Origin: an uncultured Methanosarcinales archaeon
Lineage (GTDB): Archaea; Nanobdellota; Nanobdellia; Woesearchaeales; CAZPDB01
Direction: 5' to 3'
DNA length: 30,357 bases
Assembly: GCA_964585285.1 (NCBI GenBank)
Contig: CAZPDB010000004.1
Span: forward strand, 2,839-33,195
In this document: positions 7,289 through 22,614 of the stretch, in pieces
Numbering within the stretch: position 1 is the first letter of the stretch
Layout: each line of letters opens with the position of its first letter
The notes under the pieces: generated by a model
Told to the model about the DNA's origin: nothing
Seen by the model: only the letters and a program-made list of their open reading frames with translations
Database searches by the model: none
Position numbers and translations under genes: made by a program

Positions 7289-7340
7289 TAAAATTAAAAT
7301 TAAAGTTAAAATTAAAGTTAAAATTAAAATTAAAATTAAA
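7289..7340 (+). repeat. Hexamer microsatellite (TAAAAT/TAAAGT), 8 full units plus a partial unit
   Basis: Read directly from the sequence. Confidence 0.95.
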
Positions 7341-7541
7341 CATGAGTGTATTATCTGCAACAGATGTAAAAAGGAAAGGATTGGCAGGCTCAGTCAAAGA
7401 ATTGAAGATTTTACTAGCATAGTTTGGTGATTTCTTTTTCTATTTCAAAAAAAAACAAAAAACTTAATAAGTAAGTTGAGAATTCTTTTTTTATCCTATC
7501 AGTGGGGGCGTAGCATAACCTGGCAGTGCGGCCGGCTCCAG

Positions 7542-7590
7542 TTTTGGTGCGCTGAGCTCAATTATGAGCAATGATTTACACATTGGCGGC
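7542..7590 (+). ncRNA. 49-nt canonical tRNA intron with a C'/D'-type K-turn and candidate guide
   Basis: CTGA, GCTCA/TGAGC stem, AAT bulge, GA, TT. The BHB central helix CTCC/GGCG has one mismatch. Confidence 0.75.
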
Positions 7591-7611
7591 ACCGGCTGAT
7601 CTGAGTTCAAA

Positions 7612-7654
7612 ACAGAAGCAATAAATCAATAGAAGATTTTTGTTTCTCTGAAAC
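7612..7654 (+). other. 43-nt non-canonical tRNA intron at 59/60
   Basis: Central helix TTCA (7606-7609)/TGAA (7649-7652), bulges AAA and ACT, intron helix AGAAGCAA/TTGTTTCT after one C.C mismatch. Confidence 0.88.
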
Positions 7655-7724
7655 TCTCAGCGTCCCCACTTTTCATTTTCATTTTCAAAACCTTTTTATA
7701 GCAGCTTGAGTTTTTTTCTTTCTT

Positions 7725-8873
7725 ATGAAAAAAAAGAGGGGGGCATTCTTTGAAGCCACCAGTACTATTATTGGCACTGTTATTGGTGCTGGAATTTTTG
7801 GCATTCCTTTTGTTGTTGCCCAGGCTGGTTATATCTCTGGTCTTTCCACTATCTTCATTGTTTGGGCTTTGATTCTTTGCACTTTTCTCTTGCTTGGCGA
7901 AATTGTTCTCAGAACTAAGGGAAAACATCAGTTAGCTGGTTATGCTCAGAAGTATTTGGGTAAAAAAGGCAAGACTCTTATGTATTTGGCTTTAATTATT
8001 GGTATTTATGGTGCTCTGATTGCTTATCTTATTGGTGAGGGCCAGACTATTTTTAACCTTTTCCAGCCACTTTTTGGAGGTTCTGTCTTTATCTATCAGT
8101 TGATCTTTTTTGTTTTTGGAGCGGGTATCATCAAGATTGGGCTTAAGGGTGTGAAGAAATCAGAATTTCTTCTTGTTTTTGCTCTGATTATTATTGTCTT
8201 GATTCTTTCTTTGCTTGCTCTTGCTTTTTTTCAACCATCTAATCTCCAGCAGTCTGAATTTACTCTTAAGAGTTTTTTCCTGCCTTATGGAGTTATTCTT
8301 TTTGCTTTTCTTGGTTTTGTAGCCATTCCTGAAGCTTCTCAAATTTTGAAAAAAAAGAAAAAACTTCTTTGTCCATCACTTTTTCTTGGCTCCTTGGTGC
8401 CTTTATTCATTTATGTTATTTTCACTACTGTTATAGTTGCTGCTACTGGCCAGCAAACCACTGAGATTGCTACTATGGGTTTGGGCCAACTTGATTTTTG
8501 GTTGAGAATATTTGGCAATCTCCTTGTTATGATCGCTATGGCTACTTCTTTTCTTGCTCTTGGTTTGGCTCTTAAGGAAACTTTTGTTTATGATTATAGT
8601 ATGAATGAATGGCTTGCCTGGGCTCTCACTTGTTTTGTCCCCCTCTTTTTTGCTCTTTTCAAGTGGGTGGATTTTATCCAGGCTATGAGTATTGCCGGTT
8701 CTATTGCTGGAGGTCTTTCTGGTCTTTTGATTATTTTTATGTATCCTCAAGCTAAGAAGTTAGGCCAGAGAAAACCAGAGTATTCCCTCAATCTCCCTCA
8801 CTGGCTTCTTTATCTTTTTGGAGCAGCTTATGTTATCGGTATTGTCTATATTATCCTGAATAATCTTCTTTAA
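7725..8873 (+). CDS. Aromatic amino acid permease (Mtr/TyrP-like, HAAAP family)
   Basis: GTVIGAGIFGIPF, YGALIAY, YGVILFAFLG and ATSFLA motifs; about 11 hydrophobic helices. Confidence 0.88.
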   Translation: MKKKRGAFFEATSTIIGTVIGAGIFGIPFVVAQAGYISGLSTIFIVWALILCTFLLLGEIVLRTKGKHQLAGYAQKYLGKKGKTLMYLALIIGIYGALIAYLIGEGQTIFNLFQPLFGGSVFIYQLIFFVFGAGIIKIGLKGVKKSEFLLVFALIIIVLILSLLALAFFQPSNLQQSEFTLKSFFLPYGVILFAFLGFVAIPEASQILKKKKKLLCPSLFLGSLVPLFIYVIFTTVIVAATGQQTTEIATMGLGQLDFWLRIFGNLLVMIAMATSFLALGLALKETFVYDYSMNEWLAWALTCFVPLFFALFKWVDFIQAMSIAGSIAGGLSGLLIIFMYPQAKKLGQRKPEYSLNLPHWLLYLFGAAYVIGIVYIILNNLL

Positions 8874-13020: not shown

Positions 13021-16000
13021 CTATTCTATAATTTTCACTTCTTGCCAGAGGATTCTTCTTTGTTCTCCATCTTCATTAATAGTTATCATAACCGGATAAA
13101 TTCCTGGTTTGGTTCCCGCTGGTATTCTCACTGCTCCCACTTTAGTCACTCTTTCATCATGTTCCAGTTTGAATGGACCGTATTGTCTGTACACCCCTAA
13201 CTCTGGCAGGGCAATTAACACTTTTGTCTTTCCCATATCATAATAATCATTATTTCTGAAATTTACACTCACCAACAAATCTTCTCCTGGACGTACTTCC
13301 CCTCCGTTGATAAACTCTACAAGAGAGAGATAGATTTTTCTTCTTGGCAGATGCTCTTTAGGAGGTACCATCACCCTTATCGTGAATGATTGTCTGTCAT
13401 TACTGGTATTCCCTCTTGTTCTAGCTTCAACTACTACTTTGTTGCTTCCTACTTGCTTCTTCTTTGGTGTCCAGACAATTAAACCATTTTTTTTATTAAT
13501 GGTCATGCCCCCTGGCTTATCTACCAGTTCATAAATTATTTCTTCTCCGTCTGGATCTACTGCATCCACATCATATTTGTATACTGAGTCAAACTCATTA
13601 GGATCATCAATTAAAAAGTCAGTTATTGGGGTGGAAATAATTCTCACTCCCCTATCCATCTCTCTCACCCTTACTTCAACAACTTCTTCCACACTATGAT
13701 TGCCATCACTCACCCTGACCACAAATTCATAGACTCCGCTATCTTCAAATCCAGTCTGCCATTCAAATCTATTTCCCACACCTTCTAAACTAACTTGTTT
13801 AAATCTAGTGTCATTAATTGAATAAATAAGTTCTTCCTTGGGAGTTTCTTCATCACTGGCATTGATAATAATGACTGCTGTCTCATTTTCCAGCACATCT
13901 AAAGAACCATAAATAGAATTTATTTCCGGAGCATCATTTTCAGGGTTAATAGTTAAAATAAATTCTGATTCAGCAGCCAAGTCCCACACCTTTGCTTCTA
14001 TCTTAAGGCTGGTGTTGCCATAGACATTCTCATAACTATTACAATCAAGATAATGTTCATTAATAATTGAGCAGGAAACTACTCCTTCATTGCTTGTATT
14101 GGCTGAGAATTCCACCAAACTACTATCATAAAAAGTTAAATAATCCCAAAGGTTTATTTGCCAGTTGCCAAAGTCTTCACTCAAATTTACATTTGGCATC
14201 TCTTCTAAGATCAATGCTGGAGAACCAACATTGACAGGAATGATTTCTTCCACTCTTCTCTCATCCGCATCTATCACTCCCACTCTAATCTGGCCGTTTC
14301 CCGGAGCTTGAGACCTCACTCTTAGGCTTTTCTCACCCTCACTAACATTTACAGTCTCAACTTCAAATACGCCTTCACCACCTTCAGTTATTATTTCCAT
14401 TTCAATTTCTCCTTCTATATCCCTGGCTCTCACAGTTACATTTTCTCCTTCTGGCAGTATTAAATTAACCTCATTAGGGCCTATTTCTATTTCTGGTGGA
14501 TTGTTAAGAATTTCTAAATCCATTTCCCATGAATCTTCTAATGTATAAGGCATTGAAACAGGCATTGAAACCAGCCTATAACCAATCTTTAATTCACCCT
14601 CTCCAGTCTCTGCTGTTACTGGAAGGGTTATCATAGCTGAGAAAGTCTCTTCTTCAAGGATGATATCATTCTCATTAATACTGAATATTTCATTTCCTTG
14701 AGAATCATAGATTGTTAAGTTTAGTTCACCTTCTCTGTGATTAACATATTCTTCGTCAAGATGATTATATATCTTAAAATTAATTTCTTCTTCTCTACCC
14801 CTATAAATTTCTTCAGCTAAGGAGCCTATTTCCAAACTTAATCCTGTTTCAATCACTTCATAACTAATCTTGTCCATTATCTGGTAACCTTGGTATTCAA
14901 GAGTAAAGCTAATCTCGTGTTCTCCTACACCAGAAACTATCCACGAACCAGAACAGGTTCCATCCTTATCAGAAGAACATTCATCCTTTTCTACTCCATT
15001 ATCATTAAAAGTAATTTCTGCTCCTTCAGCTGGATTATTATCATAATCTATTATAATCTCGCAGGTTTGTCTTTCTCCTTCAACCAGCCTGTCAAAAAGG
15101 CAAGTAGCAGAATAATTTATTTTCTCTGGGTCAAAAGATTCAATAACTTCAACTTCAAATTCAGTTTGAGCACATTCTTGGTCTAAATCACAGACTTCCA
15201 CACTTATTTTAATCTCTCCTTCTGCTAAAGCTTCTATGATTAGAACTTCTTCTTCAATCCTTGCTCCTACTATCTCATTATCCTCTACATCAATAACTTT
15301 CCATTCCAGAATTTCTTGATCTTCAACATCAACTGCCTTTCCTTCTAAATTAATTTCTCTTCTTTCTTCAATTTCTAATTCCAACTCTTCAAATTCTCCA
15401 ACAACCTCTGGAGGATTGTTCATGACCATGATAGTTACTTCTCTTTGTCCGCTGGTTTCATCTTCAAAATTAACTGCAAATGTTTTTAACAAAGTTTCGT
15501 CAATAAAATCATGATTAGCCGGAATCACTCCTTCAAACCTATAATAATCACCAACCAATCCCTCAGCATCCAACTTCAACTCTCCGCCAGCACTACTTCT
15601 TAAAACTGCGCTGGTCACAATGCTTTCATCACTCACCAACACATTCCCCTCATTCAAATCACGAACCCTAAAACTAACATAAATATCTCTGCTCCGATAA
15701 AACTCATCACTCTCCACACTATAACCACTATCATTATACACTCCCAAATCAGTAATGTTATACCTGGAACTAAACACACTATAACCAAAACTAGGCTCAT
15801 CATCCAAATCAGGCACAAACTCAGGGAACAACTGAGCAGTAGCATAAACCTCATAATCTCCCAGCTCCTCCTCTGTCCAGCTCGCACTACAACCACCACT
15901 CAACTCATCAGTCAAACACTCACCAACCCAAACATCATCATCCCTAACTCCAACCATACCATCCTTCTGATAAAAATTAACTTCCACCCCTCCCACAGAT

Positions 16001-19000
16001 GTTTCTCCTGCATTAACCATCACATTACAAGTCTGCCTTTCATCAACTGTCACAATCTCATCACAATCAATACTCTCCACTTCCAACTCATTACCCCTAA
16101 CACTAACCCCAACAATTTCTTCATCAAAATCCCCATCAAGATCAACCAGATGCAAAACAACATCAGCTTCACCAACACTCTCCCCAACCAAACTCAAAAT
16201 CTTTCCTCCTCCAAGATTAACCCCAACCACATCTTCATCAAAATCAACCAACTCCCAACTCAAATTCTCCCCACTATCCTCCAAATCAAACTCATACTCC
16301 TCCAAATTAAACAATCTCTCCTCACCCACTCTTAAATCAATCTCACCTAAATCCCAACCAACAACCTCTGGAGGATTGTTCATGACCATGATAGTTACTT
16401 CTCTTTGTCCGCTGGTTTCATCTTCAAAATTAACTGCAAATGTTTTTAACAAAGTTTCGTCAATAAAATCATGATTAGCCGGAATCACTCCTTCAAACCT
16501 ATAATAATCACCAACCAATCCCTCAGCATCCAACTTCAACTCTCCGCCAGCACTACTTCTTAAAACTGCGCTGGTCACAATGCTTTCATCACTCACCAAC
16601 ACATTCCCCTCATTCAAATCACGAACCCTAAAACTAACATAAATATCTCTGCTCCGATAAAACTCATCACTCTCCACACTATAACCACTATCATTATACA
16701 CTCCCAAATCAGTAATGTTATACCTGGAACTAAACACACTATAACCAAAACTAGGCTCATCATCCAAATCAGGCACAAACTCAGGGAACAACTGAGCAGT
16801 AGCATAAACCTCATAATCTCCCAGCTCCTCCTCTGTCCAGCTCGCACTACAACCACCACTCAACTCATCAGTCAAACACTCACCAACCCAAACATCATCA
16901 TCCCTAACTCCAACCATACCATCCTTCTGATAAAAATTAACTTCCACCCCTCCCACAGATGTTTCTCCTGCATTAACCATCACATTACAAGTCTGCCTTT
17001 CATCAACTGTCACAATCTCATCACAATCAATACTCTCCACTTCCAACTCATTACCCCTAACACTAACCCCAACAATTTCTTCATCAAAATCCCCATCAAG
17101 ATCAACCAGATGCAAAACAACATCAGCTTCACCAACACTCTCCCCAACCAAACTCAAAATCTTTCCTCCTCCAAGATTAACCCCAACCACATCTTCATCA
17201 AAATCAACCAACTCCCAACTCAAATTCTCCCCACTATCCTCCAAATCAAACTCATACTCCTCCAAATTAAACAATCTCTCCTCACCCACTCTTAAATCAA
17301 TCTCACCTAAATCCCAACCAACAACCTCTGGAGGATTGTTGAGTATCATCACTTCAACATCTCTTTGCCCGCTTGATTTGTCTGTATAATTGATGACCAG
17401 ACTTGTTAAGATACTTTCATCAATAAAATCATGGGTTAATGGGATTCGGGCTTCATAATGGTACCAGCTGTCAGAGAATCCTTTCTTATCAAATTCAAGC
17501 ACTCCTCCTGCTGCCGGGCTGCTTAGTCTTACTTCGCTCACTACTTCATTCTCAATTAGTTCCCCTGTAAATATCTCTTCTACTTGGAATCTGACATAAG
17601 CCCACTCTCCTCTGTAAAAAGTTTCATCTTTAGTGCTGAAATCAGCATTTTTTGAGATTTCCAGATTAGTGATATTATATTTTGAACTATAGACTTCAAA
17701 GCTGGCTGTTGGTTCTTTTAATTCCCAATCTTTAAACCCATCTTTTTCAGCTCCAGCATAAACAGTCCATTCTCCCAGCCTTCCCGGACTAAAAACTACT
17801 CCGCAAGCTCCAGTAATCTCATTTGTTGAACAACTACCTAAGCTTTCATCATTATCATAATTATAAAGTTCAACTTCTACCTCTCCAATCATTCTACTAT
17901 CAGCCTCTATCTTAGCATTGCATATCTGAGTGTTATCAACAGTCATTATAGGGTGAGCACAGTTAAGAGAAACAATAACTAATTGATTATCAAGCACCTC
18001 CACTCTAAAGATTCTGGCTTCCATTCCTTGGTCACTATCTACCACAGTCACAGTTATCTGGCTTGTTCCCTTAGCTTTTCCTTCTATCACCAATTCTTCG
18101 CCCAACACTTCTACTCCTACTATGTCCTGAGCAGAACTTTCTGCAGTGATAATTAATTGGCCATACTCATCTTCCAAATCACTAATTTTCTCTCTCAGGT
18201 TTATTCTTTTTTCTTCTCCAGTGTATAATTCAATATCAGAAATGTCTCCTATCTCTGGTTCGTTGTTCCAGAGATAAATCTCTTTGCTTCCTTGACCAGC
18301 AGTATTATCAATAAAATTAAAGGCAAAACTAAAGACCTTGCCTGGCTGGTTCTCATCTGTTGTTAAATAATCATCTGTTAATGGGATTGCTTCCAGATAG
18401 TATCTATAATATAATTGTTCTGCTGATATTTGGGCTAAGGCTGGAGAACTTAAAGTTGAAGCATCTTTATAACTTTCTACTTGTCTTACAAACATCCCGC
18501 TTCCTACTGGTTCTAACCCAATAAAATCAAAATAAAGTGGCTCAGCATTTTTCATTCTCAAGAAAACTTCTGTCACTACTTCCTCATTCACAAACTCTCC
18601 ACTGAATTTGTCTTTAACTTGGAATTGAACAAAGACCTGATCTCCTCTGTAAAATTCATTTACGCGATTAACAAAATCACTCTCATTATAAGTGTCCAGA
18701 TTAATTATTTGATATTGTTCTGCCCAGACTTTGAATTCTTTTTCTGTACTGCTCCTTGCTGATTCATATCCTTCTTTCTCAGCTTCAACATAATAACTGT
18801 AATTTGCTGGTTCAAGATTAATCACTGGTTCAATTATGACATAACCATAATCATCTGTTTCTCCACTACCAATACTTGTGCCATCTCCTAGTTTGAATCC
18901 AACCTCTGCCCCGGTAACCATATATTCTTCATCATCACTAGTGCTCACTCCAACCCTAGCTGTGCAGTATTGTTCTTTTCCCTGAACCACATTCGGATTA

Positions 19001-22000
19001 CAGCCAAATTCTTTTATTTCCAGTTCTGCTCGAACAGTTATTGGTTTAGTGATTTCATCACTTAATCCTCCCTTATCAGTCACTTCTAAAATAACATCAT
19101 AAACACCCGGCTCTTCATAAACATGACTCACTCCCACCCCTTCACCATCTGAACCATCACCAAAATCCCATTCATAACCAACAATATCCTCACAATTTCT
19201 CCCTTCACAATCAGGGTCAGCGCTTTCTGAAGTAAAAACCACCTCTTCAAAAACAAGTGGTTCTAAAGGTTCATAAACAAAATCAGCTTCAGGCCTATCA
19301 TTAACATTAACCACCCTAACCAAAACATCCTCACTCACAACCCCACCATCAGTATCATTAACAACAAAACTTATTATCTCTTCATCATCAACAAATCCTT
19401 CTAAAGGAATAATAGTTGCCACCCTATTAATTATCTGCACCCCGACATTTTCACTCCCAGAAGCACTCCATAACAATTCCTCATCTGGTGTTTCCACATC
19501 TTCAACATAATCATCTAAAACCAAATTCTCTACCTCATATTCACCAATCCTTACCACTTCAGGTAAACTCACACTTGGCAGATTATTATAGACTCTCACA
19601 CCCAAATCTTCCTGACCAGCTGTGCCATCTTCCAGATTAAAAACAAAACTAAACACCTTGCCCTCTCCCAAAAAGTCATCAGTCAATGGTATTGACTCCA
19701 AATAATAACGATAATAAACAGGTCCCTGACCAGCACTATTAACCTCAGAATATTGTTCTCCAATCATCACATAAGCACCTACCTCTTCCAAATATTCTTC
19801 AAAATAAAGAGGTTCATCATTATTCACCCTTAAGAAAACCTCCTTTAACAAACCCGGATCATCAACATAATCACCTGAAAACAAATCAACAATCTGGAAT
19901 TGAGCATAAACAGAATTACCCCTATAAAACTCCCTAGAAGATGTAATAAACTCATCTGAATAAACATCAAAATTAGTAATATTATACTGGTGTTCCCAAA
20001 CCCTAAACTCAAACAGCTCTGATTCTCCAGCTTCATAACCTTCCTTTCCAGCTCTAACATAAACTCTCTCTAACCCCGGCTCCCTCTCAATCACTGGATT
20101 AATATGACCATAACCTTTGAAGTTTGTCTCTACCCTACCCAATTCTTCTCCATCCTCATAAAAGAATATCAACTCTGCTCCCTCAACCGCAAACTCCCTA
20201 TCAACCAATTCAACTTTTGCACTGCAATGCTGAATCTCACCCCGAACCACGTTAGGATTGCAGCCAAACTCTTCTAATTTCAAAGCCCCACTTACCTGCA
20301 CACTCTTAACTATCTCATCACTTAATCCTCTCTTATCAGTCACTTCTAAAATAACATCATAAACACCCGGCTCTTCATAAACATGACTCACTCCCACCCC
20401 TTCACCATCTGAACCATCACCAAAATCCCATTCATAACCAACAATATCCTCACAGTTTCTTCCTTCACAGTCTTGGTCATGAGAAATTGATCTAAAATTA
20501 ACTTCATCCAAAACTACTGGGTTGAGTGGTAAATAAGCAAAATTAGCTTCAGGCCTATCATTAACTGGTTTAATAATAATCTTAAACCCTTGAGTGACAA
20601 TATTTTTACCATCAGAAACAATTAAGTCAACATTGCAAATCCCATTAAAATTAATTTCTGGGTGGATATCTAGATAATTTCTTTCATCAACCATTGCTCC
20701 GCATCTTTCGTCATCTTGTTCAAGGGAATATTCCAGGTTTCGGCTTGGTGTCTCTGCATCAATAACATAATCTGGGAAATAAAGAAGGTCATTTTTTTGT
20801 TCATCCTCATCCATAAAAATATCTTCAATCTCTTCAATCACTGGAGCATCATTAACCCAATCAACTGTTACTTGGACTGGCTCAGAATAAGCAAAAGCTC
20901 CTTCTGGATCAACCACCTTAAAAACCAGTTCTTCTCTTCCATCCCAATTGGTTTCCGGTTCTATTCTTATTAAGTGTTCTTCACTATTTGGGATAACATC
21001 CACAGTTAGATGCCTGTGCTCGCCAGTTTCCTCTACTTCCAGTGCAGAGTCAGCATCATCTTCATCATTTATGTAAGGATCAATATCAAATTCGTAAACT
21101 TCATCTTCCTGCATATTGATATCTGGGATCTTTGTAAACATTGGCGCTAGATTATTTTTTCTCATTGAAACATAAATATAATAATCAGCAAATCCTAAGT
21201 CAAATTCTCCTGAGTTTTTGGTATAGTCTGGATGGACAATTTCATAGATATATTTTCCAGGTTCAAGATTAATTCTTGCCTCTCCCTGTTCATCACTGAC
21301 TGCATTCCAAATATCAGATCTAGACTCCGTGTTTATTACTTCAACTGAAGCTCCTTCAATTGCATTGTTCGTATCAATCTCCTTAATCAAGAAATTCACA
21401 TCATAGGTTGGGACTGGCTGAACATAGATTTCTTCTTCCAGAGTCTCTTCAAAATTATTTAATCCCTCACAAAGATTGCTCTCTCCCAGACCTCTAACTC
21501 GGATAATATACCGGCCAGTTTCTTCAGGAGTCCAGCTAAAACTTATCTCTGTTGGCTCATAAGCATCCGCATTCTCTTCCACTACCAAATCGTTTTCAAA
21601 AACAATCTCTCCTGTTTCTTTTTTAACAATCTCATAATTAACCCTGGTTGGGATTGGTGTGTATTGATCAAGATTATCCATATAATTGCTTGTCTTTTTA
21701 TAATATATAGTTAGTTCATCTCCAACAATTGGGAACTGTTCATCTGTTCTTAGATTATTCAGCAAAGTATAACATTGTCCCACTGGCCTGGCTGGCAGCA
21801 CATTGAAATTTTTATTAGTGCTTTCTGTTTCAGCACTCAAACACTGACAATCAGTCACTTCTGATTCTAAGACTGCTTTATAATTTTCTCCAGCTATAGT
21901 TGGTGTCCACATAAACCTTATTGTTTCATGTGTGTCCATGTAGATATTTAATTCCCTGCTATCCTCATAAACCATTTCTCCTTCTGGATTATAAATCTTT

Positions 22001-22614
22001 AAACGAACAATTGTCTCTGCGCTGTAAAACTCTTCTTTATACTCTTCAGGGATGTAATGTGGTGCTCTTCCAGAGGAATGGAAAGCTGAATAAGTTTCTG
22101 CATCCAGTCTGGCATCTACTTCCACTACTAATGGTTCATTTTCGTGAACAGTATTAATAATAGAAAAATCTTCAATTGGCGCGTGGCAATTTTCTGCTTT
22201 ACCTAAGTAATGGTCATAATAATAACTCATCCCTCCCCCCCAATTATTAGGTATTACTCCTCTCATTGGAGCATAGCATTCTTTGAATAAATAAATAGCA
22301 TAATCTCTTGGTTCAGAAGTGTAAGGATAAACTATTGTTACAGAGTTTTCTTCTCCAGAATTATCATTAAAGATGGGTGGTTCTTTTACTGCCCAGCACT
22401 GTTCCAGATTGTCTTCACATTCATGAACAATCATTTGCACCCCATTTAATGGTTCTCTACTGTATTGGTCATAAAAAGAATCCACTTCTCTGTTGCCGTC
22501 AGCTAAAACTATTGGTAAAAAAATCAGAACCCCAGTTAAGATAATTAAAAATAAAATATTTTTTTTGAGTGGGTTTGTTTTCATTTTAGTTTTCACCATC
22601 ATAATCTTCACCAT
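13021..22614 (-). CDS. Giant (3197 aa) secreted adhesin-like protein with PKD, cadherin-like and repeated Ig modules
   Basis: Signal peptide (true start may be 22584), two PKD domains (YEWDFGDG..SHVYEEPGVYDV), many NDAP/NNPP..DxD cadherin-like units, six FYRG-type modules, CARDB-like C-terminal domain, no C-terminal TM. Confidence 0.9.
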   Translation of the reverse strand: MVKIMMVKTKMKTNPLKKNILFLIILTGVLIFLPIVLADGNREVDSFYDQYSREPLNGVQMIVHECEDNLEQCWAVKEPPIFNDNSGEENSVTIVYPYTSEPRDYAIYLFKECYAPMRGVIPNNWGGGMSYYYDHYLGKAENCHAPIEDFSIINTVHENEPLVVEVDARLDAETYSAFHSSGRAPHYIPEEYKEEFYSAETIVRLKIYNPEGEMVYEDSRELNIYMDTHETIRFMWTPTIAGENYKAVLESEVTDCQCLSAETESTNKNFNVLPARPVGQCYTLLNNLRTDEQFPIVGDELTIYYKKTSNYMDNLDQYTPIPTRVNYEIVKKETGEIVFENDLVVEENADAYEPTEISFSWTPEETGRYIIRVRGLGESNLCEGLNNFEETLEEEIYVQPVPTYDVNFLIKEIDTNNAIEGASVEVINTESRSDIWNAVSDEQGEARINLEPGKYIYEIVHPDYTKNSGEFDLGFADYYIYVSMRKNNLAPMFTKIPDINMQEDEVYEFDIDPYINDEDDADSALEVEETGEHRHLTVDVIPNSEEHLIRIEPETNWDGREELVFKVVDPEGAFAYSEPVQVTVDWVNDAPVIEEIEDIFMDEDEQKNDLLYFPDYVIDAETPSRNLEYSLEQDDERCGAMVDERNYLDIHPEINFNGICNVDLIVSDGKNIVTQGFKIIIKPVNDRPEANFAYLPLNPVVLDEVNFRSISHDQDCEGRNCEDIVGYEWDFGDGSDGEGVGVSHVYEEPGVYDVILEVTDKRGLSDEIVKSVQVSGALKLEEFGCNPNVVRGEIQHCSAKVELVDREFAVEGAELIFFYEDGEELGRVETNFKGYGHINPVIEREPGLERVYVRAGKEGYEAGESELFEFRVWEHQYNITNFDVYSDEFITSSREFYRGNSVYAQFQIVDLFSGDYVDDPGLLKEVFLRVNNDEPLYFEEYLEEVGAYVMIGEQYSEVNSAGQGPVYYRYYLESIPLTDDFLGEGKVFSFVFNLEDGTAGQEDLGVRVYNNLPSVSLPEVVRIGEYEVENLVLDDYVEDVETPDEELLWSASGSENVGVQIINRVATIIPLEGFVDDEEIISFVVNDTDGGVVSEDVLVRVVNVNDRPEADFVYEPLEPLVFEEVVFTSESADPDCEGRNCEDIVGYEWDFGDGSDGEGVGVSHVYEEPGVYDVILEVTDKGGLSDEITKPITVRAELEIKEFGCNPNVVQGKEQYCTARVGVSTSDDEEYMVTGAEVGFKLGDGTSIGSGETDDYGYVIIEPVINLEPANYSYYVEAEKEGYESARSSTEKEFKVWAEQYQIINLDTYNESDFVNRVNEFYRGDQVFVQFQVKDKFSGEFVNEEVVTEVFLRMKNAEPLYFDFIGLEPVGSGMFVRQVESYKDASTLSSPALAQISAEQLYYRYYLEAIPLTDDYLTTDENQPGKVFSFAFNFIDNTAGQGSKEIYLWNNEPEIGDISDIELYTGEEKRINLREKISDLEDEYGQLIITAESSAQDIVGVEVLGEELVIEGKAKGTSQITVTVVDSDQGMEARIFRVEVLDNQLVIVSLNCAHPIMTVDNTQICNAKIEADSRMIGEVEVELYNYDNDESLGSCSTNEITGACGVVFSPGRLGEWTVYAGAEKDGFKDWELKEPTASFEVYSSKYNITNLEISKNADFSTKDETFYRGEWAYVRFQVEEIFTGELIENEVVSEVRLSSPAAGGVLEFDKKGFSDSWYHYEARIPLTHDFIDESILTSLVINYTDKSSGQRDVEVMILNNPPEVVGWDLGEIDLRVGEERLFNLEEYEFDLEDSGENLSWELVDFDEDVVGVNLGGGKILSLVGESVGEADVVLHLVDLDGDFDEEIVGVSVRGNELEVESIDCDEIVTVDERQTCNVMVNAGETSVGGVEVNFYQKDGMVGVRDDDVWVGECLTDELSGGCSASWTEEELGDYEVYATAQLFPEFVPDLDDEPSFGYSVFSSRYNITDLGVYNDSGYSVESDEFYRSRDIYVSFRVRDLNEGNVLVSDESIVTSAVLRSSAGGELKLDAEGLVGDYYRFEGVIPANHDFIDETLLKTFAVNFEDETSGQREVTIMVMNNPPEVVGWDLGEIDLRVGEERLFNLEEYEFDLEDSGENLSWELVDFDEDVVGVNLGGGKILSLVGESVGEADVVLHLVDLDGDFDEEIVGVSVRGNELEVESIDCDEIVTVDERQTCNVMVNAGETSVGGVEVNFYQKDGMVGVRDDDVWVGECLTDELSGGCSASWTEEELGDYEVYATAQLFPEFVPDLDDEPSFGYSVFSSRYNITDLGVYNDSGYSVESDEFYRSRDIYVSFRVRDLNEGNVLVSDESIVTSAVLRSSAGGELKLDAEGLVGDYYRFEGVIPANHDFIDETLLKTFAVNFEDETSGQREVTIMVMNNPPEVVGEFEELELEIEERREINLEGKAVDVEDQEILEWKVIDVEDNEIVGARIEEEVLIIEALAEGEIKISVEVCDLDQECAQTEFEVEVIESFDPEKINYSATCLFDRLVEGERQTCEIIIDYDNNPAEGAEITFNDNGVEKDECSSDKDGTCSGSWIVSGVGEHEISFTLEYQGYQIMDKISYEVIETGLSLEIGSLAEEIYRGREEEINFKIYNHLDEEYVNHREGELNLTIYDSQGNEIFSINENDIILEEETFSAMITLPVTAETGEGELKIGYRLVSMPVSMPYTLEDSWEMDLEILNNPPEIEIGPNEVNLILPEGENVTVRARDIEGEIEMEIITEGGEGVFEVETVNVSEGEKSLRVRSQAPGNGQIRVGVIDADERRVEEIIPVNVGSPALILEEMPNVNLSEDFGNWQINLWDYLTFYDSSLVEFSANTSNEGVVSCSIINEHYLDCNSYENVYGNTSLKIEAKVWDLAAESEFILTINPENDAPEINSIYGSLDVLENETAVIIINASDEETPKEELIYSINDTRFKQVSLEGVGNRFEWQTGFEDSGVYEFVVRVSDGNHSVEEVVEVRVREMDRGVRIISTPITDFLIDDPNEFDSVYKYDVDAVDPDGEEIIYELVDKPGGMTINKKNGLIVWTPKKKQVGSNKVVVEARTRGNTSNDRQSFTIRVMVPPKEHLPRRKIYLSLVEFINGGEVRPGEDLLVSVNFRNNDYYDMGKTKVLIALPELGVYRQYGPFKLEHDERVTKVGAVRIPAGTKPGIYPVMITINEDGEQRRILWQEVKIIE
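15398..17340. repeat. Exact in-frame tandem duplication, 960-bp unit (320 aa)
   Basis: Line-by-line comparison of 15398-16380 with 16358-17340 found no mismatch. Confidence 0.97.
19055..20472. repeat. Pair of near-identical 158-bp PKD-core repeats (19055-19212 and 20315-20472)
   Basis: Offset 1260 bp; 4 mismatches, all transitions; flanks diverged. Confidence 0.93.

What the first reader, a model, noticed from the sequence alone, without database searches (positions are those of the whole stretch)
7542..7596. Minimal half C/D guide in the tRNA-Trp intron pointing at C39
Seen: CUGA (7552-7555), a 5-bp stem, AAU bulge, GA, UU form a K-turn with a C'-like AUGAUUU. The guide upstream of CUGA (UUGGUGC, 7544-7550) pairs with GCACCGG (7589-7595), and the fifth nucleotide upstream of the box pairs with 7592, which is C39. 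Established: euryarchaeal pre-tRNA-Trp introns carry box C/D guides for 2'-O-methylation at 34 and 39. Here the terminal C/D boxes and the 34 guide are not visible. Inference: a 49-nt single-K-turn remnant or minimal guide. The duplex is short (5 WC + 2 GU), spans the 3' splice site and competes with the BHB.
Basis: partly seen in the sequence, partly recalled or inferred. Interest (0 to 1): 0.62.

Follow-up and report, generated by a model that had tools for sequence, protein, structure and literature searches.

The report
tRNA-Trp intron guide retargeted to C39
The intron of this tiny archaeon's tryptophan tRNA carries a one-kink methylation guide that in about 200 related genomes aims at anticodon base C34, but here a single-base change plus a matching intron end appear to re-aim it at C39; the methylation itself has not been measured.

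Summary
Observation confirmed; interpretation partly right. The 49-nt intron (7542-7590) of a Woesearchaeota tRNA-Trp(CCA) holds box D, a 5-bp hairpin and a C-like box (one K-turn). The guide pairs across the 3' splice site with D+5 on C39 (5 WC + 2 GU). It is not a lone C'/D' remnant. The same guide-D-hairpin-C design is in 200 of 401 genomes of the order, where it aims at C34 (A at D-4 in 141 of 142 introns). This genome alone has U at D-4, together with a rare intron end (GC; 3 of 141 others) that completes the C39 duplex. Other lineages show first-slot C39 guides whose bases covary with the intron end. One other A-to-U case still fits C34 better. Best reading: a C34 guide switched, or broadened, to C39. 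Single-K-turn guides work in vitro in recent work. Fibrillarin and L7Ae are present; Nop5 is missing, probably at a contig break. No reads could be checked. The scan had already noted single-K-turn intron guides in other genomes; none of the earlier notes I saw described this target switch. New variant of a known kind.

The parts
7504..7541 (+). tRNA-Trp(CCA) exon 1 (positions 1-37; C34 = 7538)
   Evidence: ARAGORN on the doubly spliced sequence
7542..7590 (+). Intron 1 at 37/38, 49 nt
7544..7550 (+). Guide (D-8 to D-2). D+5 base = G7547. U7548 replaces the A found in 141 of 142 order introns
7552..7555 (+). Box D (CUGA; NUGA in relatives)
7556..7569 (+). Canonical stem of the K-turn, 5 bp with a 4-nt loop; first pair G-C as in 133 of 139 introns
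7570..7577 (+). 3-nt bulge and box-C-like heptamer (7571-7577); this variant is in 7 introns of the set
7585..7588 (+). 3' strand of the BHB central helix; pairs with 32-35 with a U33.C mismatch (relaxed BHB)
   Evidence: sequence
7589..7595 (+). Preferred guide target spanning the 3' splice site; C39 = 7592. The intron end GC is rare (3 of 141 relatives)
7535..7541 (+). Ancestral target G31-G37 (C34 at D+5), now with U.U at D-4
7591..7611 (+). tRNA exon 2 (38-59)
7612..7654 (+). Intron 2 at 59/60 in the T-loop, 43 nt, hairpin; not part of the guide
7655..7668 (+). tRNA exon 3 (60-73); CCA end not encoded

Best explanation
A monopartite (single K-turn) box C/D-type guide in the pre-tRNA-Trp intron, re-aimed from C34 to C39. 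Shown from sequence: the K-turn elements, the 7-bp duplex with D+5 on C39, order-wide conservation of the scaffold, and the base that differs. Inferred: L7Ae binds the K-turn and recruits Nop5-fibrillarin. The guide then opens the anticodon stem of an unspliced pre-tRNA, either in cis or from another pre-tRNA or the excised circle (23-nt closed loop), and C39 is 2'-O-methylated. The RNA refolds into the BHB and EndA splices it. Methylation must precede splicing, because two of the five WC pairs use intron bases. Residual C34 activity is possible.
For: The scaffold is in 200 of 401 order genomes, and a K-turn is found in 139 of 142 extracted introns. U at D-4 occurs only in G000 of the 401. The same A-to-U change would give an unbroken WC run D-2..D-6 on the 39 site in only 3 of 141 relatives, and a mismatch-free D-2..D-8 in none. 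Independent first-slot 39-type guides covary with the intron end: GC/GC (L169; 0 of 27 phylum-mates end in GC), AU/AU (L179, L185), UU/AA (L175, L176), UA/UA (L207, L208). In long order introns a separate 39 element pairs with the intron end at both positions in 50 of 54 cases, in 7 pair types, so C39 is an ancestral target. Fibrillarin, L7Ae and EndA are present. Nop5 lies next to fibrillarin in 9 of 12 relatives, and the G000 fibrillarin gene runs off its contig. Monopartite K-turn guides with L7Ae methylated 8-11-bp substrates specifically (PMC9670817). Halfmers work, closed ones with a spacer of about 18 nt or more (PMC7229835).
Against: The duplex is only 7 bp with 2 GU, below the 8 bp minimum tested in PMC9670817 and the 9-WC rule used for predictions (PMC6009581). 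It is a singleton in the order sample, with no same-family genome and no reads to exclude an assembly error. L173 has the same A-to-U change but fits C34 better, and L169 is a tie. The D+5 register on C39 comes for free, because both sites read CC at the same offset. Nop5 is not found in this assembly. An older study found hemi-complexes non-specific (PMC1635284).
Confidence: 0.55

Rival explanations
1. It is still (or was) a C34 guide carrying a tolerated or decaying U.U mismatch at D-4, or an assembly error, and the GC intron end is a coincidence.
For: The guide keeps the 34-type C and G at D-2/D-3 and still forms 5 WC + 1 GU with G31-G37. L173 shows A-to-U without gaining the 39 site. C34 is the target in the other 141 introns and in this genome's tRNA-Met intron. 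No free-standing Trp C34 guide was seen.
Against: The GC end has a base rate of about 2%, yet two of the three A-to-U cases have it. The 34 duplex (-7.1 kcal/mol) is weaker than in all 141 relatives (-7.4 to -15.1). Mismatches at positions 3-4 lower activity in vitro (PMC1635284; PMC9670817).
Confidence: 0.25
2. The K-turn binds L7Ae and the pairing is a folding or splicing-control switch (alternative to the weak BHB), without methylation.
For: The BHB fold (-10.2), 39-duplex fold (-12.3) and 34-hairpin fold (-11.6 kcal/mol) are close in energy. The BHB helix has a mismatch. The duplex is short.
Against: Across lineages the pairing keeps a WC pair at exactly D+5 and keeps box D and box C. Fibrillarin is over the cut-off in 186 of 201 order genomes.
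Confidence: 0.15
3. The intron is a canonical-order half guide (39 guide-D'-C') inherited or acquired from another lineage.
For: Such introns exist in the same class (L207, L208).
Against: The guide matches the order's 34 guide in all but one base, and the K-turn details (first G-C pair, C-box variant) are order-typical. L207 and L208 have a different guide and keep a downstream 34 element.
Confidence: 0.05

Closest known systems
Intron-encoded box C/D RNA of euryarchaeal pre-tRNA-Trp (Haloferax volcanii; Pyrococcus sR50; alignment in PMC2584109 Additional file 4)
   Same: Same host intron (37/38 of tRNA-Trp CCA). Antisense across the 3' splice junction with D+5 on position 39. Must act before splicing.
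   Different: One K-turn and one guide instead of two. Order is guide-D-loop-C instead of C-guide39-D'-C'-guide34-D. The 39-type sequence sits in the slot that holds the 34 guide in relatives. The duplex is 7 bp.
Engineered halfmer / monopartite C/D guides (MMG4; PMC9670817, PMC7229835)
   Same: One K-turn with one guide upstream of box D.
   Different: Natural, embedded in its own substrate, shorter duplex, activity untested.
Permuted C/D sRNA24 and tRNA-Met intron RNA of Nanoarchaeum equitans (PMC3491384)
   Same: Box order correct only in the circle; C/D-like elements in a DPANN tRNA intron.
   Different: sRNA24 is free-standing with two box pairs. No target switch was described in the passages read.

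Membership tests
Euryarchaeal pre-tRNA-Trp intronic box C/D sRNA | Located in the 37/38 intron of tRNA-Trp(CCA) | tested here: met
Euryarchaeal pre-tRNA-Trp intronic box C/D sRNA | Two box pairs (C/D and C'/D') in the order C-D'-C'-D | tested here: not met
   One pair, D before C (compared); no Rfam match at gathering score
Euryarchaeal pre-tRNA-Trp intronic box C/D sRNA | Two guides, for 34 and 39 | tested here: not met
   One guide; the downstream 39 element of long relatives is absent
Box C/D methylation guide (works like) | K-turn: stem, 3-nt bulge, tandem GA/AG | tested here: met
   Sequence; 139 of 142 order introns
Box C/D methylation guide (works like) | WC pair at D+5 within a guide-target duplex | tested here: met
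   G7547-C39; also G7547-C34 in the weaker duplex
Box C/D methylation guide (works like) | Duplex of about 9-10 WC pairs | tested here: not met
   5 WC + 2 GU. The order's conserved 34 guides are also short.
Box C/D methylation guide (works like) | L7Ae, Nop5 and fibrillarin encoded | tested here: inconclusive
   L7Ae and fibrillarin found; Nop5 not found, contig break upstream of fibrillarin
Box C/D methylation guide (works like) | 2'-O-methylation of the target | not testable with these tools
   Needs RiboMethSeq, MS or reconstitution

The most novel reading that the evidence does not exclude
One guide, two targets. The guide keeps the D-2/D-3 bases needed for G31-C32 while the intron end has come to match them, and U at D-4 gives a WC pair at the 39 site and only a U.U mismatch at the 34 site. 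A single K-turn and a single 7-nt guide could then methylate both C34 and C39, compressing the classical two-guide, two-K-turn system into one element. L169 (a tie between the two sites) would be a second, independent origin.
Probability: 0.2. Interest if true: 0.72.

Novelty: new variant of a known kind. Interest (0 to 1): 0.5.

Why it matters
It would be a natural case of a methylation guide changing its target by one base inside its own substrate, and a natural test of single-K-turn guides, which in archaea I found described only as engineered RNAs. The 142-intron series (29-96 nt) also holds long forms in which a plain stem replaces one box pair. PMC9670817 names that design as an open question in nature. 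The constructs are under 130 nt and can be tested directly with standard recombinant L7Ae/Nop5/fibrillarin. Physiological stakes are probably low: the title of Joardar 2008 (listed; not read) says the Haloferax intron and its methylations are not essential.

Tried and rejected
Rfam at gathering score: no match. The weak snoU2-30 hit joins the C-like box to a CUGA in the T-stem exon; that CUGA is not conserved in relatives, so I rejected it. MFE folding of the intron alone is uninformative (z -0.11). Loose ARAGORN intron mode on the genome gave mostly false calls. The unconstrained box-pair pattern is far too common to be useful. No free-standing Trp C34 guide with a K-turn was seen in G000 (the genome is 90% complete). 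Nop5 fragments were not found by tblastn. Clouet d'Orval 2001, Bortolin 2003, Singh 2008 and a DOI recalled for a guide-duplex paper were not held. Alignment A1 had wrong minus-strand coordinates for two rows and was not used for counts. Guide positions D-2, -3, -5, -6 and -7 were fixed by my search pattern, so their invariance is circular; only D-4, D-1 and D-8 were free.

Full report
Setting. The window comes from a 1.0-Mb, 90% complete assembly. The named relatives of its L7Ae are from Candidatus Woesearchaeota. The finding lies in a tRNA-Trp(CCA) gene at 7504-7668 that ARAGORN and Rfam miss because it has two introns. Removing 7542-7590 (37/38) and 7612-7654 (59/60) gives a normal tRNA-Trp.

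Observation. The K-turn-like hairpin is rare genome-wide: 15 in 2.03 Mb. The guide pairs with 7589-7595 (5 WC + 2 GU, -10.6 kcal/mol) with D+5 on C39. It also pairs with G31-G37 with D+5 on C34, but with a U.U mismatch at D-4 (-7.1). On spliced tRNA the 39 duplex drops to -4.2, so only the precursor is a target.

What relatives show. A pattern for anticodon + guide + box D hits 200 of 401 genomes of the order, with 1 control hit. I extracted 142 distinct introns of 29-96 nt. They begin with a short lead, a guide antisense to G31-A36 with D+5 on C34, and NUGA. In 139 of them a hairpin with an NNU bulge and GA follows. Position D-4, left free in the pattern, is A in 141 and U only here. A direct search for the U form found only G000 among the same 401.

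Long forms. About 51 introns carry a second element after box C that pairs with the last two intron bases and A38-C40. It covaries with the intron end in 50 of 54 candidates, in seven pair types, and mostly with N41 (45 of 51). It ends 12-13 nt after box C in 40 of 51 and is followed by a plain hairpin, not a K-turn. A C'-like heptamer doubles as the BHB helix strand. The order guide34-D-loop-C-guide39-stem-C' is a circular permutation of the euryarchaeal C-guide39-D'-C'-guide34-D (PMC2584109 supplement 4). The surviving K-turn is therefore best read as the terminal C/D pair (inference). A stem replacing one box pair is the engineered BMG1 design, which works with archaeal Nop5 (PMC9670817).

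Is the C39 match selected? The focal intron ends in GC; 3 of 141 relatives do, two of them with the matching second element. Giving each relative the same A-to-U change yields a WC run D-2..D-6 on its 39 site in 3 of 141 and a mismatch-free D-2..D-8 in none. Scans of the public genome and metagenome collections and of the class found other first-slot 39-type guides. L169 (a Thermoproteota-labelled MAG) has the same guide core and also ends in GC, whereas 0 of 27 phylum-mates do. L179/L185 pair AU with AU. The Aenigmatarchaeota L175/L176 pair UU with AA, and L207/L208 pair UA with UA. L173 has the A-to-U change but ends in UC and fits C34 better; L169 is a tie. Two of three A-to-U cases having a 2% end argues for selection, but the numbers are small and the D+5 register is not independent evidence, because both sites read CC at the same offset.

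Machinery. Fibrillarin, L7Ae and EndA are encoded. Nop5 is not in the assembly, but the fibrillarin gene runs off the end of contig C66, where Nop5 sits in 9 of 12 relatives. A relative's Nop5 aligns over the coiled coil and C-terminal domain of Sulfolobus Nop5. This genome's tRNA-Met(CAU) intron has the same design, with A at D-4 aimed at C34.

Mechanism. L7Ae-bound K-turn, Nop5-fibrillarin, guide invasion of the anticodon stem, methylation, refolding to a relaxed BHB (the folds lie within about 2 kcal/mol) and splicing. All steps after base pairing are inferred. Recent in vitro work supports single-K-turn guides (PMC7229835; PMC9670817). Older work found them non-specific and sensitive to mismatches at positions 3-4 (PMC1635284), which counts against efficient C34 activity with the U.U pair. 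Cis versus trans is open. My odds: C39 guided 0.55 (of which about 0.2 together with C34), C34-only, decayed or error 0.25, structural only 0.15, foreign canonical half 0.05.

Comparison and novelty. It works like the euryarchaeal Trp-intron C/D guide but fails its two-box, two-guide and box-order features, so it is filed as a variant. Four literature searches for such DPANN or uncultured-archaeal introns found no description; the library lacks many subscription papers. The scan's earlier notes already report single-K-turn guides in DPANN and Asgard tRNA introns, including a half guide for C39 in another archaeon. None of the notes shown described a 34-to-39 switch within one slot.

Data caveats. 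Kin are not independent, so the counts are descriptive. The tallies 200/401 and 186/201 include unpublished genomes (G315, G209, G244, G131, G374, G182, G111). The 9/12 Nop5 count includes G182 (8/11 without it). The 142-intron set contains none of them.

Noticed in passing
window 7612-7654 (+): Second tRNA-Trp intron at 59/60 in the T-loop, with a BHB and a stable hairpin (z -3.2 for 7601-7661).
   Followed up: partly
L006, L012, L013, L048 and about 50 other order introns: Long Trp introns are circularly permuted dual guides in which a plain stem replaces C'/D'; the 39 element covaries strongly with the intron end. Candidate natural BMG1-type guides, possibly more interesting than the focal case.
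   Followed up: partly
L175:18-71 (-), L176:3278-3328: Aenigmatarchaeota Trp introns have a 39 guide + D box and a 34 guide + D box in tandem, upstream of a single C box, suggesting alternate K-turn use.
   Followed up: no
L214-L240 (phylum of G401): Trp introns of about 22 nt hold a 34 guide and box D but no box C; many are followed, just after the tRNA 3' end, by a conserved G-rich element that might supply the missing half.
   Followed up: no
L049, L106, L077: Minimal 29-34-nt introns in which box C doubles as the BHB central-helix strand.
   Followed up: no
G000:C50:562-682 (+): The tRNA-Met(CAU) intron has the same guide-D-hairpin-C design, aimed at C34.
   Followed up: partly
window 7725-8873 (+): A Trp/Tyr permease family gene (PF03222) starts 56 nt after the tRNA-Trp gene; linkage in relatives not checked.
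   Followed up: no
window 13021-22614 (-): A 3197-aa ORF next to Ig-like-domain genes; not examined.
   Followed up: no
window 7290-7340 (+): AT-rich hexamer tandem run upstream of the tRNA gene.
   Followed up: no
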